Assembly: GCF_054482595.1 (NCBI RefSeq)
Contig: NZ_CM137008.1
DNA length: 64,000 bases
Direction: 5' to 3' (one strand)
Shown: positions 42,293 to 44,943 of the stretch, piece by piece
Position numbering within the stretch: position 1 is the first letter of the stretch
Layout of the letters: every line of letters begins with the position of its first letter
Made by a program: the position numbers and the translations under genes
The notes under the pieces: generated by a model
Seen by the model: only the letters and a program-made list of their open reading frames with translations
Databases searched by the model: none
Told to the model about the DNA's origin: nothing

Positions 42293-43531
42293 ATGGCTGA
42301 CACTCGCCCTGAACGTCGCTTTACGCGCATTGATCGTCTCCCGCCCTATGTTTTTAACATTACCGCTGAACTGAAAATGGCTGCGCGTCGGCGCGGCGAA
42401 GATATTATCGATTTCAGTATGGGTAACCCGGACGGTGCGACTCCGCCGCATATCGTCGAAAAATTATGTACTGTGGCCCAGCGCCCGGACACGCATGGTT
42501 ACTCCACTTCACGCGGTATTCCGCGGCTACGTCGCGCCATTTCCCGCTGGTATCAGGATCGCTACGACGTTGAAATCGACCCGGAATCAGAAGCCATCGT
42601 CACTATTGGTTCGAAAGAGGGCCTGGCGCATCTGATGCTGGCGACACTGGATCACGGTGACACAGTGCTGGTGCCGAATCCAAGTTACCCCATTCATATT
42701 TACGGCGCGGTGATTGCCGGGGCTCAGGTACGCTCAGTGCCGCTGGTGGAAGGTGTCGATTTCTTCAACGAACTGGAGCGCGCCATTCGTGAAAGTTATC
42801 CGAAACCGAAGATGATGATCCTCGGCTTCCCGTCGAACCCAACCGCGCAATGCGTGGAACTGGAGTTCTTCGAAAAGGTTGTGGCGCTGGCGAAACGCTA
42901 CGATGTGCTGGTGGTCCATGACCTGGCCTATGCCGATATCGTCTACGATGGCTGGAAAGCGCCGTCAATCATGCAGGTGCCGGGTGCACGCGATGTGGCG
43001 GTCGAGTTCTTTACGCTGTCGAAAAGCTACAACATGGCGGGCTGGCGTATCGGCTTTATGGTTGGCAACAAAACGCTGGTCAGCGCCCTGGCACGTATTA
43101 AAAGCTATCACGATTACGGCACCTTTACGCCGTTGCAGGTGGCGGCGATTGCGGCACTCGAGGGCGATCAACAGTGCGTGCGCGACATTGCCGAACAGTA
43201 CAAACGCCGCCGTGATGTATTGGTTAAAGGGCTGCATGAAGCGGGCTGGATGGTCGAAATGCCGAAGGCTTCGATGTATGTCTGGGCGAAAATACCGGAA
43301 CCGTATGCTGCCATGGGCTCGCTGGAATTTGCCAAGAAATTGCTTAACGAAGCGAAGGTCTGTGTCTCTCCGGGGATTGGCTTTGGCGACTATGGTGATA
43401 CGCATGTGCGCTTTGCACTGATTGAAAACCGCGACCGTATTCGTCAGGCGATTCGTGGGATTAAAGCGATGTTCCGTGCCGACGGTTTACTACCCGCCAG
43501 CAGCAAACATATTCACGAAAACGCGGAATAA
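42293..43531 (+). CDS. alaC: Glutamate-pyruvate aminotransferase (class I PLP aminotransferase)
   Basis: 412 aa; PLP lysine context [10 protein letters not shown]; matches AlaC (YfdZ). Confidence 0.93.
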
Positions 43532-43550: not shown

Positions 43551-43580
43551 AAACAGGAGCCTGATGGCTCCTGTTTTTCA
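43551..43580. terminator. Bidirectional terminator between alaC and ypdK
   Basis: aaacaggagc-ctgatg-gctcctgttt followed by ttca. Confidence 0.7.
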
Positions 43581-43595
43581 TTGCACAGTTTGCTT

Positions 43596-43667
43596 TTAGA
43601 TCATCAGGGCAAAAGTACCGGCCCAAACGATGACCATAAAAGAAATGCCCATAAAGAAATATTTCAC
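43596..43667 (-). CDS. ypdK: Small hydrophobic membrane protein (23 aa)
   Basis: Manual translation: GTG-initiated MKYFFMGISFMVIVWAGTFALMI, stop TAA; not in the supplied ORF track (too short); matches the small protein YpdK as recalled. Confidence 0.5.
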   Translation of the reverse strand: MKYFFMGISFMVIVWAGTFALMI

Positions 43668-44022
43668 TTTACATCTCTCCGCGTAATTGCTGTTACGCCT
43701 GAATGACTTCATTACACCTGATACAGTGAGTTGACACCGGGCAAAACGACCTTAAAAGTCCTGTATTTTACCGTGGGCATCACCCCAGAATTCTGAGCTA
43801 AACTGCTCGAGACGGCGCTAATGTACGCCTAAAACTGAAACGAGACAAGAGGCATTTTCTTATTTACTTTTAGTAACTTACAGGTGTCTCATATCGGCGA
43901 CAGTTTAATTTCTGACGGTAATAATTAGATATTCAGCGAAGGAAAAAACCTTAAGAAAAAAGCCATAAAAACCATGAGGTTATTATGGCTTATGTGAGGA
44001 GGTAAAGAGTCAGAGCAGTTTG

Positions 44023-44943
44023 TTAAATGTATAACGACGATTCTCCCACCGGGCGCGTTTTAAAGCGACGGTGGATCCAGAGGTACTGCTCCGGTGCGCG
44101 CATGATTTCTTTCTCGATAATCTTGTTCATATAGGCAGCGGCTTGATTTTCATCTGTCGGGTAGCCTTCCATCTCTGGGGTGATGAACAAACGATATCCG
44201 CTGTAATCCGCTTTTCTTACCATCGTTACGGTCAACATGGCTGCGCCAGAGAGACGGGAGAGAACATAGGTGCCATTGGTTGTGGCGACATTTTCTACCG
44301 CAAAGAACGGCGCGAAGGAGCTGCCTTTACGACCATAATCCTGATCGGGAGCAAACCATACCGCTTCACCTTTCTTCAGTGCACTGACAATGCCGCGCAG
44401 ATTATTTCTGCCGATCATCGCTTTGTTAGAGCGCATGCGACCACGGGTCTGCACCCATTCCATCAGCTGATTATTATGTGGACGATAGGTAGCCATCATT
44501 GGCTGACAAAGTCCCATCACGCGGCCGCCCAGTTCCAGCGACATAAAATGGACGCCGACAACCATTACGCCGCGATTTTGCATTTGTGCGCGTTTAAGGT
44601 TATCCAGCCCTTCAACATCAAACCATTTACGTACGCGACTGTCGGGCCAGAACCACGCCATGCCGGTTTCTACCAGCGCCATGCCGAGTGAACGAAAGTT
44701 TTCGGCAATCATCTTCTCGCGTTCTTCCGCAGAATGCTGCGGGAAGCAAAGTTCCAGGTTTTTACGGGCGATAGATTCACGCCGTTTCAGGAATGGTCGC
44801 GCCATTGCGCCAATACGCGTGCCGAGAAAGCAGAGAACAGGATAAGGAAGCTGTACCCAAAGCCAGAGTACACCAAGCCCAAACCATGTGAGCCAGTAGC
44901 GAGGATGTAGAAACTCGCGGGAAAATTTGCATTGTGGAAACAT
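44023..44943 (-). CDS. lpxP: Lipid A palmitoleoyltransferase (cold-induced LpxL paralogue)
   Basis: 306 aa from internal ATG (MFPQCKFSREFLHPRYWLTW...); matches LpxP. Confidence 0.9.
   Translation of the reverse strand: MFPQCKFSREFLHPRYWLTWFGLGVLWLWVQLPYPVLCFLGTRIGAMARPFLKRRESIARKNLELCFPQHSAEEREKMIAENFRSLGMALVETGMAWFWPDSRVRKWFDVEGLDNLKRAQMQNRGVMVVGVHFMSLELGGRVMGLCQPMMATYRPHNNQLMEWVQTRGRMRSNKAMIGRNNLRGIVSALKKGEAVWFAPDQDYGRKGSSFAPFFAVENVATTNGTYVLSRLSGAAMLTVTMVRKADYSGYRLFITPEMEGYPTDENQAAAYMNKIIEKEIMRAPEQYLWIHRRFKTRPVGESSLYI

What the first reader, a model, noticed from the sequence alone, without database searches (positions are those of the whole stretch)
43596..43667. GTG-initiated 23-codon hydrophobic ORF between alaC and lpxP
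Not in the supplied ORF track because it is too short. Manual translation of the minus strand gives MKYFFMGISFMVIVWAGTFALMI, a single TM helix, immediately downstream of the alaC terminator. It is consistent with the small membrane protein YpdK, and easy to miss in automated annotation.
Basis: partly seen in the sequence, partly recalled or inferred. Interest (0 to 1): 0.3.

Follow-up and report, generated by a model that had tools for sequence, protein, structure and literature searches.

The report
Known small membrane protein gene ypdK
This is the already catalogued E. coli gene ypdK, which encodes a 23-residue single-helix membrane protein of unknown function.

Summary
The ORF is real and sits exactly where stated (window 43596..43667, minus strand, GTG start, MKYFFMGISFMVIVWAGTFALMI). 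It is the known gene ypdK (b4680). RefSeq annotates it at these coordinates, in all 60 evenly sampled records from the 5,422 complete E. coli genomes that carry the region. NCBIfam's YpdK equivalog model scores 57.5 bits (cutoff 30).

The ORF lies tail-to-tail with alaC in 75 of 80 Enterobacterales species. In-frame pN/pS is 0.28, against 1.1 and 2.2 in the shifted frames, and seven residues plus the start codon never change. The 38-aa ATG-started alternative is confined to E. coli.

The protein's function is unknown; I infer that it acts as an accessory helix of a larger membrane protein.

Three things seen in passing, none found described in what I could search:
- The GTG start codon is invariant (76/76 loci).
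- A promoter-like element is conserved.
- A ~146-nt structured leader (four helices with compensatory changes, no Rfam match) precedes the ORF. Its predicted 5' end agrees with a published tiling-array transcript.

Verdict: observation confirmed, interpretation supported, already known, low interest. The leader is the only part worth further work.

The parts
43596..43667 (-). ypdK coding sequence: GTG start, 23 codons, TAA stop. Peptide MKYFFMGISFMVIVWAGTFALMI.
   Evidence: Purifying selection acts in this frame only.
43677..43680 (-). Shine-Dalgarno GGAG (GGAGAG), 9 nt before the GTG.
   Evidence: A GGAG-type motif is present 6-9 nt upstream in 76/76 loci.
43669..43674 (-). Out-of-frame ATG-TAA ('start-stop') between the Shine-Dalgarno and the GTG. 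The ATG is kept in most Enterobacteriaceae whatever its frame.
   Evidence: Function unknown.
43681..43698 (-). Leader helix P4: hairpin GCGUAA-CAGCAA-UUACGC, ending directly at the Shine-Dalgarno.
   Evidence: 92-94% of cells paired, and 4-5 of 6 pairs show compensatory changes.
43727..43787 (-). Leader helix P2 (5' arm 43787..43776, 3' arm 43738..43727), enclosing the variable hairpin P3 (43772..43740).
   Evidence: P2 is 90-98% paired with compensatory changes. P3 forms in every species but is deleted in some strains.
43792..43812 (-). Leader helix P1: hairpin at the 5' end of the transcript.
   Evidence: The stem sequence differs widely between genera while pairing is kept. It is the weakest helix in the alignments (74-75% paired).
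43813..43815 (-). Transcription start (predicted ~43813; the tiling-array 5' end maps to ~43815).
   Evidence: Predicted from the promoter geometry. PMC3009722 file S3 gives a transcript 2494795-2494997 against a ypdK start at 2494943, i.e. -148. The K-12 and window leaders have the same length.
43814..43870 (-). Promoter-like region: A/T-rich tract 43870..43851, -35 TTGTCT 43848..43843, 17-nt spacer, -10 TACATT 43825..43820, GC-rich AGCGCC 43819..43814.
   Evidence: GTAnATTAGCGCC was found upstream of the GTG in 74 of 76 loci. It lies 120-196 nt upstream in all but five, which have shorter leaders of 49-93 nt. The -35 hexamer and its spacing are conserved across three families. Promoter activity is inferred, not shown.
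43551..43576 (.). GC-rich hairpin flanked by an A-run and a U-run: a bidirectional intrinsic terminator shared by ypdK (-) and alaC (+).
   Evidence: -22.1 kcal/mol (+ strand) and -23.9 kcal/mol (- strand), z about -3.5. A hairpin of <= -12.7 kcal/mol follows the ypdK stop in 75/75 loci.
42293..43531 (+). alaC (alanine transaminase), the conserved convergent neighbour.
   Evidence: The gap between the two stop codons is 36-88 nt in 69 of 75 species.
43952..43991 (-). lpxP terminator (hairpin 43991..43960 plus a U-run). It separates lpxP from the ypdK unit.
   Evidence: -20.3 kcal/mol, z -5.1.

Best explanation
The ORF is the gene ypdK, a stand-alone unit.

Shown here:
- A conserved 23-24-codon reading frame is under protein-level purifying selection.
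- It always starts at GTG behind a GGAG Shine-Dalgarno.
- It always ends just before a GC-rich hairpin shared with the convergent alaC gene.
- A ~146-nt conserved leader precedes it and folds into four helices (P1-P4).

Inferred:
- Transcription starts from its own sigma-70-type promoter (-35 TTGTCT, -10 TACATT).
- The GUG is read by a ribosome bound at GGAG.
- The product is essentially one hydrophobic helix. It inserts into the inner membrane with Lys2/Tyr3 at the cytoplasmic face.
- It acts by packing against a larger membrane protein, as other characterised <50-aa enterobacterial membrane proteins do. The invariant Gly7, Ser9, Gly17, Thr18 and Phe19 and the near-invariant Trp15 would form the contacts.
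- The weak start codon and the structured leader keep or tune its synthesis at a low level.

The cellular function and the partner protein are unknown.
For: - Identity: the coordinates and peptide are identical to RefSeq ypdK. NCBIfam NF033437 scores 57.5 bits against a cutoff of 30. Public sources name the same sequence YpdK. PMC3009722 lists ypdK among the 18 small membrane ORFs of Hemm et al. 2008.
- Coding: it is present next to alaC in 75 of 80 species. Codon-position entropy is 0.58/0.19/1.13, and pN/pS is 0.28 in frame against 1.12 and 2.24 out of frame. Y3, M6, G7, S9, G17, T18 and F19 are invariant although their third codon positions vary freely.
- Start: GTG in 76/76 loci with GGAG 6-9 nt upstream. 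The upstream ATG exists only in E. coli.
- Membrane helix: GRAVY is 2.15 over residues 4-23.
- Own unit: lpxP has its own terminator. The upstream neighbour differs between genera, while the promoter-like motif travels with ypdK.
- Transcript: the tiling-array 5' end at -148 matches the predicted start at -146.
- Leader structure.
- Terminator.
Against: - Hemm et al. 2008 and 2010 are not held, so the report of a tagged protein rests on my memory of those papers.
- No partner protein is known, and YpdK is in no solved structure.
- By a 100-degree-per-residue wheel I worked out by hand, the conserved residues do not fall on a single helix face. A simple one-sided helix-helix contact is therefore not evident.
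- The leader is conserved about as strongly as the ORF, so the RNA may have a role of its own.
Confidence: 0.92

Rival explanations
1. Dual-function or riboregulatory RNA. The ~270-nt transcript is primarily a structured RNA, either a cis-acting translational switch or a trans-acting small RNA. On this reading the ORF is one of two functions, or the minor one.
For: - The leader of ~146 nt is conserved across Enterobacteriaceae whatever the upstream gene.
- Four helices show compensatory changes: 94% of cells paired against 86% shuffled and 29-53% slid, and 52 double-change cells against 22, with 0/500 shuffles reaching the observed value. On 62 sequences, 18 of 22 pairs show double changes.
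- The whole transcript folds with z = -4.3.
- The covariance model hits once per locus.
- The promoter-like element is strongly conserved.
- The arm GAGGUGAUGC resembles the Shine-Dalgarno region GGAGnGAUG, and a CUCUCU tract follows P2. Alternative pairing with the ribosome-binding site is therefore conceivable.
Against: - The ORF is itself under clear protein-level selection, so the coding function is not dispensable.
- The leader sequence is not kept in Erwiniaceae or Serratia, which keep the peptide.
- No target, ligand or Hfq-type features were identified, and no experiment was available.
- P3 is naturally deleted in some strains.
Confidence: 0.3
2. Type I toxin-like gene: a small hydrophobic peptide that damages the membrane when made. 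It would be kept silent by a long structured 5' untranslated region and a weak start codon, like tisB, zorO, dinQ or shoB.
For: - A hydrophobic ~23-aa product, a ~146-nt structured leader and a non-ATG start.
- The transcript was mildly UV-induced, log2 +1.06.
- The resemblance to those toxin mRNAs is from my own knowledge.
Against: - It is single-copy (median 1 place per genome).
- It is inherited with alaC in conserved synteny across three families and under strong purifying selection. That is the pattern of a housekeeping gene, not of a sporadic toxin locus.
- No antisense promoter-like site overlaps the unit.
- It matches no PADLOC defence or toxin model.
Confidence: 0.04
3. The real product is the 38-aa protein started at the upstream in-frame ATG (43712): MKSFRRNSNYAERCKV + YpdK.
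For: the ORF listing reports this longer ORF, 43596..43712. ATG is the commoner start codon.
Against: - The ATG at -45 occurs only in the two E. coli loci. In most species GTG is the only in-frame start before the next upstream stop.
- The NCBIfam profile covers only residues 17-38 of the long form.
- The extension lies inside leader helix P4, and the sequence shows no GGAG-type motif in front of this ATG.
- RefSeq and K-12 annotate the 23-aa form.
Confidence: 0.02
4. Chance ORF in an intergenic region, conserved only because it overlaps the alaC terminator or another DNA or RNA signal.
For: Short ORFs are abundant: 57 of >=20 aa in 3.5 kb.
Against: - Substitutions show three-base periodicity, and pN/pS is low only in this frame.
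- Residues are invariant while their codons vary synonymously.
- The Shine-Dalgarno, the start and the ORF length of 23-24 codons are kept in 76 loci.
- The ORF does not overlap the terminator hairpin.
Confidence: 0.01

Closest known systems
YpdK (E. coli K-12 b4680; RefSeq WP_010723117.1; NCBIfam NF033437 'membrane protein YpdK')
   Same: Identical peptide, identical coordinates and start codon, and the same neighbours. This is that gene.
   Different: Nothing differs in the gene. The conserved leader, the promoter-like element and the invariant GTG are not part of any annotation I could find. MG1655 has no feature between lpxP and ypdK, and there is no Rfam match.
Characterised enterobacterial small single-helix membrane proteins that bind larger membrane proteins (AcrZ-AcrB, MgtS-MgtA, CydX-CydAB, KdpF-KdpABC, MgrB-PhoQ, PmrR-LpxT); from my own knowledge
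   Same: Size class (<50 aa) and a single hydrophobic helix. Conserved small or polar residues sit inside the helix (G7, S9, G17, T18). The gene has its own expression signals.
   Different: There is no sequence similarity (no Pfam family). No partner is known. ypdK is not in an operon with a candidate partner: its only conserved neighbour, alaC, is convergent and is annotated as a transaminase, not a membrane protein. The analogy is a working hypothesis only.
Type I toxin mRNAs with long structured 5' untranslated regions (tisB, zorO, dinQ, shoB); from my own knowledge
   Same: A short hydrophobic ORF behind a >100-nt folded leader, with features expected to limit translation.
   Different: ypdK is single-copy, syntenic, vertically conserved and under purifying selection. 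No antisense partner was seen, and there is no hit in PADLOC.
Dual-function RNAs that also encode a small protein (SgrS/SgrT, AzuCR/AzuC, Spot 42/SpfP); from my own knowledge
   Same: A short transcript (~270 nt), a conserved structured non-coding part plus a small ORF, and its own promoter and terminator.
   Different: There is no evidence of base-pairing targets or chaperone binding. The non-coding part is 5' of the ORF and abuts the ribosome-binding site, which fits cis-regulation at least as well.

Membership tests
YpdK (NCBIfam NF033437, equivalog) | Profile score at or above the curated cutoff (30 bits) over the full 23-residue model | tested here: met
   57.5 bits, E = 9.4e-16, residues 1-23 on profile positions 1-23.
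YpdK (NCBIfam NF033437, equivalog) | Sequence identity with the reference protein of E. coli K-12 (b4680) and RefSeq WP_010723117.1 | tested here: met
   The annotated CDS maps to window 43596..43667. The MG1655 ypdK region, ORF included, aligns to the window without any ORF substitution. An exact look-up returns 'membrane protein YpdK'.
YpdK (NCBIfam NF033437, equivalog) | Genomic position: convergent with alaC, separated by a terminator hairpin | tested here: met
   There are 64 nt between the two stop codons in the window. The gap is 36-88 nt in 69 of 75 species, and a hairpin is present in 75/75.
YpdK (NCBIfam NF033437, equivalog) | Protein-coding: selection acts on the amino-acid sequence | tested here: met
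   pN/pS is 0.28 in frame against 1.12 and 2.24 in the shifted frames. Entropy by codon position is 0.58/0.19/1.13.
YpdK (NCBIfam NF033437, equivalog) | Translated in vivo and located in the membrane | not testable with these tools
   Hemm et al. 2008/2010 are not held. PMC3009722 only confirms that ypdK is one of their 18 ORFs and that a transcript covers it. Hydrophobicity is consistent with a membrane location.
Type I toxin-antitoxin locus | Antisense or divergent small-RNA antitoxin overlapping or complementary to the toxin mRNA | tested here: inconclusive
   No promoter-like site lies on the opposite strand within the unit. The only + strand site, 43897..43925, is outside it and points away. 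A consensus scan cannot exclude a weak promoter or alaC read-through.
Type I toxin-antitoxin locus | Patchy, often multi-copy distribution, not fixed in synteny | tested here: not met
   There is one place per genome at the median, in 5,422 of 5,426 E. coli genomes. The position next to alaC is the same in 75 of 80 species of three families.
Type I toxin-antitoxin locus | Toxicity on overexpression | not testable with these tools
   This needs an experiment.
Any described RNA family (Rfam 15) for the leader | Covariance-model match at or near the gathering score | tested here: not met
   The only matches in the window region are chance-level hits (Plastid-psbJ-2, 23.5 bits against 65.6; snoR44, 21.1 against 48). 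Nothing falls on the leader in six other species.
Structured cis-regulatory leader RNA (generic class) | Conserved secondary structure supported by compensatory base changes | tested here: met
   On the unbiased MAFFT alignment, 94.1% of cells are paired (shuffled 85.9%, slid 29-53%), there are 52 double-change cells against 21.8, and 0/500 shuffles reach the observed value.
Structured cis-regulatory leader RNA (generic class) | The structure changes expression of the downstream ORF in response to a signal | not testable with these tools
   The only hints are that P4 abuts the Shine-Dalgarno and that there are sequences complementary to the Shine-Dalgarno. No signal is known.

The most novel reading that the evidence does not exclude
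The ypdK transcript carries an undescribed, ~146-nt structured leader RNA (helices P1-P4) conserved throughout Enterobacteriaceae. It is driven by a conserved promoter whose A/T-rich upstream tract and GC-rich post -10 segment resemble growth-rate/stringent-controlled promoters. It is coupled to a GUG start codon that has not changed in any of 76 loci across three families. On this reading the leader is a translational switch, or the RNA half of a dual-function RNA, that sets the level of a membrane peptide. The known 'orphan' small protein would then be the output of an unrecognised regulatory RNA.
Probability: 0.3. Interest if true: 0.45.

Novelty: already known. Interest (0 to 1): 0.12.

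Why it matters
The finding itself matters little. It re-identifies a gene that has been in the K-12 annotation as b4680 since it was reported among the small-protein ORFs of Hemm et al. 2008, and that RefSeq now calls routinely. It does show that the first-stage reader can recover a true 23-codon gene from raw sequence.

YpdK remains one of the small membrane proteins with no assigned function. The comparative data give concrete handles for studying it:
- Seven invariant residues to mutate.
- An invariant weak start codon.
- A mapped promoter and transcript 5' end.
- A conserved folded leader whose helices can be broken and restored.
- Natural variants that lack one helix.

Tried and rejected
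- The search for homologous proteins refuses queries under 40 aa, and structure prediction and the search of protein representatives need at least 30 aa. I therefore fetched relatives through the neighbouring AlaC protein, which also avoids biasing the sample towards loci that keep the ORF.
- Hemm 2008, Hemm 2010 and the EcoSal small-proteome review are not held.
- Supplements of the start-site profiling and Mg-starvation papers are not held. The profiling paper's main text has nothing on ypdK.
- Searches for 'b4680' and for 'ypdK' inside words returned only noise. One title search was malformed.
- Two bacterial papers that mention ypdK use it only as a landmark or as a machine-learning feature.
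- Pfam, PADLOC and the PDB give nothing.
- The simple terminator scan missed the alaC/ypdK hairpin and reported an implausible site inside the ORF. Folding showed the real hairpin.
- The 38-aa isoform, the chance-ORF reading and the leader-peptide reading were rejected. The last fails because nothing lies downstream on that strand except the terminator.
- A palindrome CUCAGAAUUCUGAG looked like an alternative hairpin, but it is not maintained in Kosakonia or UBA3516, so I dropped it.
- Pairing of the Shine-Dalgarno with codons 3-6 in the single-sequence fold rests on G-U pairs and is not supported across species.

Full report
**Observation.** On the minus strand, window 43596..43667 reads GTG AAA TAT ... 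ATC TAA and translates to (M)KYFFMGISFMVIVWAGTFALMI. GGAGAG begins 13 nt upstream of the GTG, so the GGAG core is 9 nt from it. alaC occupies 42293..43531 on the plus strand and lpxP occupies 44023..44943 on the minus strand. An ORF of this length carries no weight alone, since 57 ORFs of at least 20 aa overlap the surrounding 3.5 kb. Its hydrophobicity is exceptional: GRAVY is 2.15 for residues 4-23, and only 1 of 1,249 stop-to-stop fragments of 20-45 aa in the window reaches 2.0.

**Identity.** A 701-nt query around the ORF matches 5,422 of 5,426 complete E. coli genomes. RefSeq annotates a CDS 'ypdK, membrane protein YpdK' (WP_010723117.1) whose coordinates map exactly onto 43596..43667. 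In K-12 MG1655 it is b4680 / YP_002791250.1 at 2496921..2496992. NCBIfam's equivalog model NF033437 scores 57.5 bits against a cutoff of 30, end to end. Pfam has no family. The exact peptide, and the Enterobacter, Pantoea and Serratia variants, are all held in public collections under the name YpdK on hundreds to over 1000 contigs. PMC3009722 states that ypdK is one of the 18 small membrane-protein ORFs reported by Hemm et al. 2008. That paper and its 2010 sequel are not held here, so the report of an epitope-tagged product rests on my memory of them. In an even sample across the identity ranking, 60 of 60 E. coli records annotate the gene, so current RefSeq annotation does not miss it.

**Conservation test.** To avoid circularity I collected loci through the neighbouring AlaC protein: 80 species of Enterobacterales, with 3 kb of flank.
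- A YpdK-like ORF lies on the opposite strand just past alaC in 75 of them.
- One of the other five loci ends 53 nt after alaC. The remaining four (Erwinia endophytica, Symbiopectobacterium, Lonsdalea, and a contig labelled Pseudomonas resinovorans) lack it even by a profile search.
- All 76 ORFs, counting the extra E. coli locus, are 23 or 24 codons, start at GTG and have a GGAG-type motif 6-9 nt upstream.
- Among 69 distinct coding sequences, entropy by codon position is 0.58/0.19/1.13.
- Mean pairwise pN/pS is 0.28 in the annotated frame, against 1.12 and 2.24 in the two shifted frames.
- Y3, M6, G7, S9, G17, T18 and F19 never change although the third positions of their codons vary freely. 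K2, W15 and M22 are nearly invariant.

This is selection on a protein. The synonymous variation at Tyr3 shows that translation covers the N-terminus, so the GTG rather than the internal Met6 is the start. The in-frame ATG at 43712 that would give a 38-aa form exists only in E. coli, and the NCBIfam profile ignores the extension.

**Gene organisation.**
- *Terminator.* ypdK and alaC converge. The 64 nt between their stop codons hold a hairpin (43576..43551) flanked by an A-run and a U-run. It folds at -22 to -24 kcal/mol on either strand, with z about -3.5. A comparable hairpin follows the ypdK stop in 75 of 75 loci. It is best read as a bidirectional terminator.
- *Link to alaC.* The gap to alaC is 36-88 nt in 69 of 75 species.
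- *Upstream neighbour.* The gene on the other side is lpxP in only 17 of 75. Elsewhere it is a beta-aspartyl peptidase, a CynX-type transporter, a CTX-M/KLUC-type beta-lactamase, histidine ammonia-lyase, an EmrA-like adaptor, PxpA or others, lying 100-600 nt away and on either strand.
- *Separation from lpxP.* lpxP has its own terminator in the window.

ypdK is therefore an independent unit that stays attached only to the 3' end of alaC. I cannot tell whether that reflects function or merely the shared terminator.

**Promoter and leader, seen in passing and followed up.** The DNA upstream of ypdK is conserved whatever gene precedes it. The motif GTAnATTAGCGCC occurs upstream of the GTG in 74 of 76 loci. 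It lies 120-196 nt upstream in all but five, which have shorter leaders of 49-93 nt. It is preceded at 17 nt by TTGTCA/TTGTCT/TTGTAA (TTTATT in Erwiniaceae) and, in Enterobacteriaceae, by an A/T-rich tract. In the window this reads -35 TTGTCT (43848..43843), -10 TACATT (43825..43820) and AGCGCC (43819..43814), and it predicts a start near 43813. Independently, a tiling-array study lists a transcript from 2494795 to 2494997 overlapping ypdK (start 2494943), which puts the 5' end at -148. The K-12 and window leaders have equal length, with three substitutions, so this end maps to about 43815. The A/T tract plus GC-rich segment after the -10 resembles stringently controlled promoters. That comparison is from memory and was not tested.

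**Leader structure.**
- In 32 Enterobacteriaceae the ~146-nt leader aligns at 70% mean column identity.
- RNAalifold finds a long-range helix (P2) and a hairpin ending at the Shine-Dalgarno (P4). Eight of the 15 predicted pairs show compensatory changes.
- On this unbiased alignment 94.1% of cells pair, against 85.9% after shuffling and 29-53% when partners are slid. There are 52 double-change cells against 21.8, and no shuffle in 500 reaches the observed value.
- Single-sequence folds show a 5' hairpin (P1) and an inner hairpin (P3) in every species, with very different stem sequences. Adding P1 keeps the statistics significant.
- A covariance model built from the alignment hits once in the 64-kb window (43656..43819, 131 bits) and once per Enterobacteriaceae locus. 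It does not hit Erwiniaceae or Serratia. Their leaders are also conserved but differ, with a 5' CGAUCC complementary to a downstream GGGAUCG.
- On the model-guided alignment of 62 sequences, 18 of 22 pairs show double changes against 12.3 expected. That alignment leans towards the structure by construction.
- The 275-nt predicted transcript folds at -92.9 kcal/mol against -71.1 +/- 5.1 for shuffles, z = -4.3. It reproduces P1-P4 and the terminator.
- Rfam 15 has no match in the window or in six other species, and MG1655 annotates nothing there.

**Mechanism.**
- *Shown.* The frame is conserved, selected and hydrophobic. The GTG and the Shine-Dalgarno are fixed. The terminator is shared with alaC. 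The leader is conserved and folded. A published transcript matches the predicted 5' end.
- *Inferred.* The peptide is a single inner-membrane helix with Lys2 on the cytoplasmic side. It works by binding a larger membrane protein through its invariant small and polar residues, by analogy with AcrZ, MgtS, CydX and similar proteins. The GUG and the leader limit or regulate its synthesis.
- *Limits.* No partner is known. YpdK is in no solved structure and in no defence-system family. By a helical wheel I worked out by hand, the conserved residues do not line up on one helix face.

**Rivals.**
- *Regulatory or dual-function RNA.* This is compatible with the data and is the only reading with some novelty. 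It cannot replace the coding function, given.
- *Type I toxin.* This fits the leader and the hydrophobic product. It does not fit the single-copy, syntenic, strongly conserved distribution or the lack of an antisense promoter.
- *38-aa isoform and chance ORF.* Both are rejected.

**Verdict.** The gene is already known and routinely annotated, and its function is still unknown. Interest in the finding itself is low. The invariant GTG and the unannotated structured leader are the points worth passing on.

Noticed in passing
window 43665..43667 (-); all ypdK loci L001-L081: The ypdK start codon is GTG in 76 of 76 loci from Enterobacteriaceae, Erwiniaceae and Serratia. Meanwhile synonymous sites in the same ORF differ at 61% of sites on average. 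A single G->A change would give ATG, yet it is never seen, which suggests selection for the weak start codon itself.
   Followed up: partly
window 43668..43813 (-), with promoter-like region 43814..43870 (-): A ~146-nt leader is conserved across Enterobacteriaceae and folds into four helices (P1-P4) with compensatory base changes. It has no Rfam family and no annotation in MG1655. Its predicted 5' end agrees with a published tiling-array transcript (-148).
   Followed up: yes
window 43669..43674 (-): An out-of-frame ATG sits only 2 nt after GGAG. In E. coli and Buttiauxella it is followed at once by TAA, in Cedecea and Pluralibacter by TGA ('start-stop'). In most other Enterobacteriaceae it opens an unselected out-of-frame ORF. 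In Phytobacter and Kosakonia it is in frame, 2 codons upstream of the GTG. The GATG is kept whatever the frame, so it is probably an RNA signal rather than a start.
   Followed up: partly
L002:4363-4493 (-), L010, L011, L037, L039: Natural leader variants exist. E. coli SCPM-O-B-8794 has a leader 33 nt shorter than the window and K-12, lacking hairpin P3. Pseudocitrobacter and two Enterobacter species also have shortened leaders. P3 therefore appears dispensable.
   Followed up: partly
L019 (Kluyvera genomosp. 1), about 273 nt upstream of ypdK on the opposite strand; the L020 neighbour was not examined: In Kluyvera the gene next to the ypdK promoter region is a chromosomal CTX-M/KLUC-type class A beta-lactamase (582 bits on the CTX-M model, cutoff 570). 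ypdK-alaC therefore flanks the native locus of a CTX-M progenitor.
   Followed up: partly
L079 (NZ_AUIE01000007.1): A contig labelled Pseudomonas resinovorans DSM 21078 encodes an AlaC 91% identical to that of E. coli, but no ypdK. That identity is surprisingly high for a Pseudomonas record, which suggests horizontal transfer, contamination or mislabelling.
   Followed up: no
L072 and L078 (Serratia), L042 (Buttiauxella brennerae): About 700 nt (Serratia) or about 1.6 kb (B. brennerae) are inserted between alaC and ypdK, so the tight linkage can be broken. Upstream of ypdK in Serratia lies a 145-188-aa ORF with no NCBIfam match.
   Followed up: no
E. coli genome collection: One of the 5,426 matching places for the alaC-ypdK-lpxP segment is on a plasmid record rather than a chromosome, and a few genomes carry up to three places.
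   Followed up: no
PMC3009722, supplementary file 3: The transcript covering the ypdK leader and ORF was reported as about 2-fold induced (log2 +1.06) after UV irradiation. I saw no LexA-box-like CTGT-N8-ACAG when reading the leader sequence by eye.
   Followed up: partly
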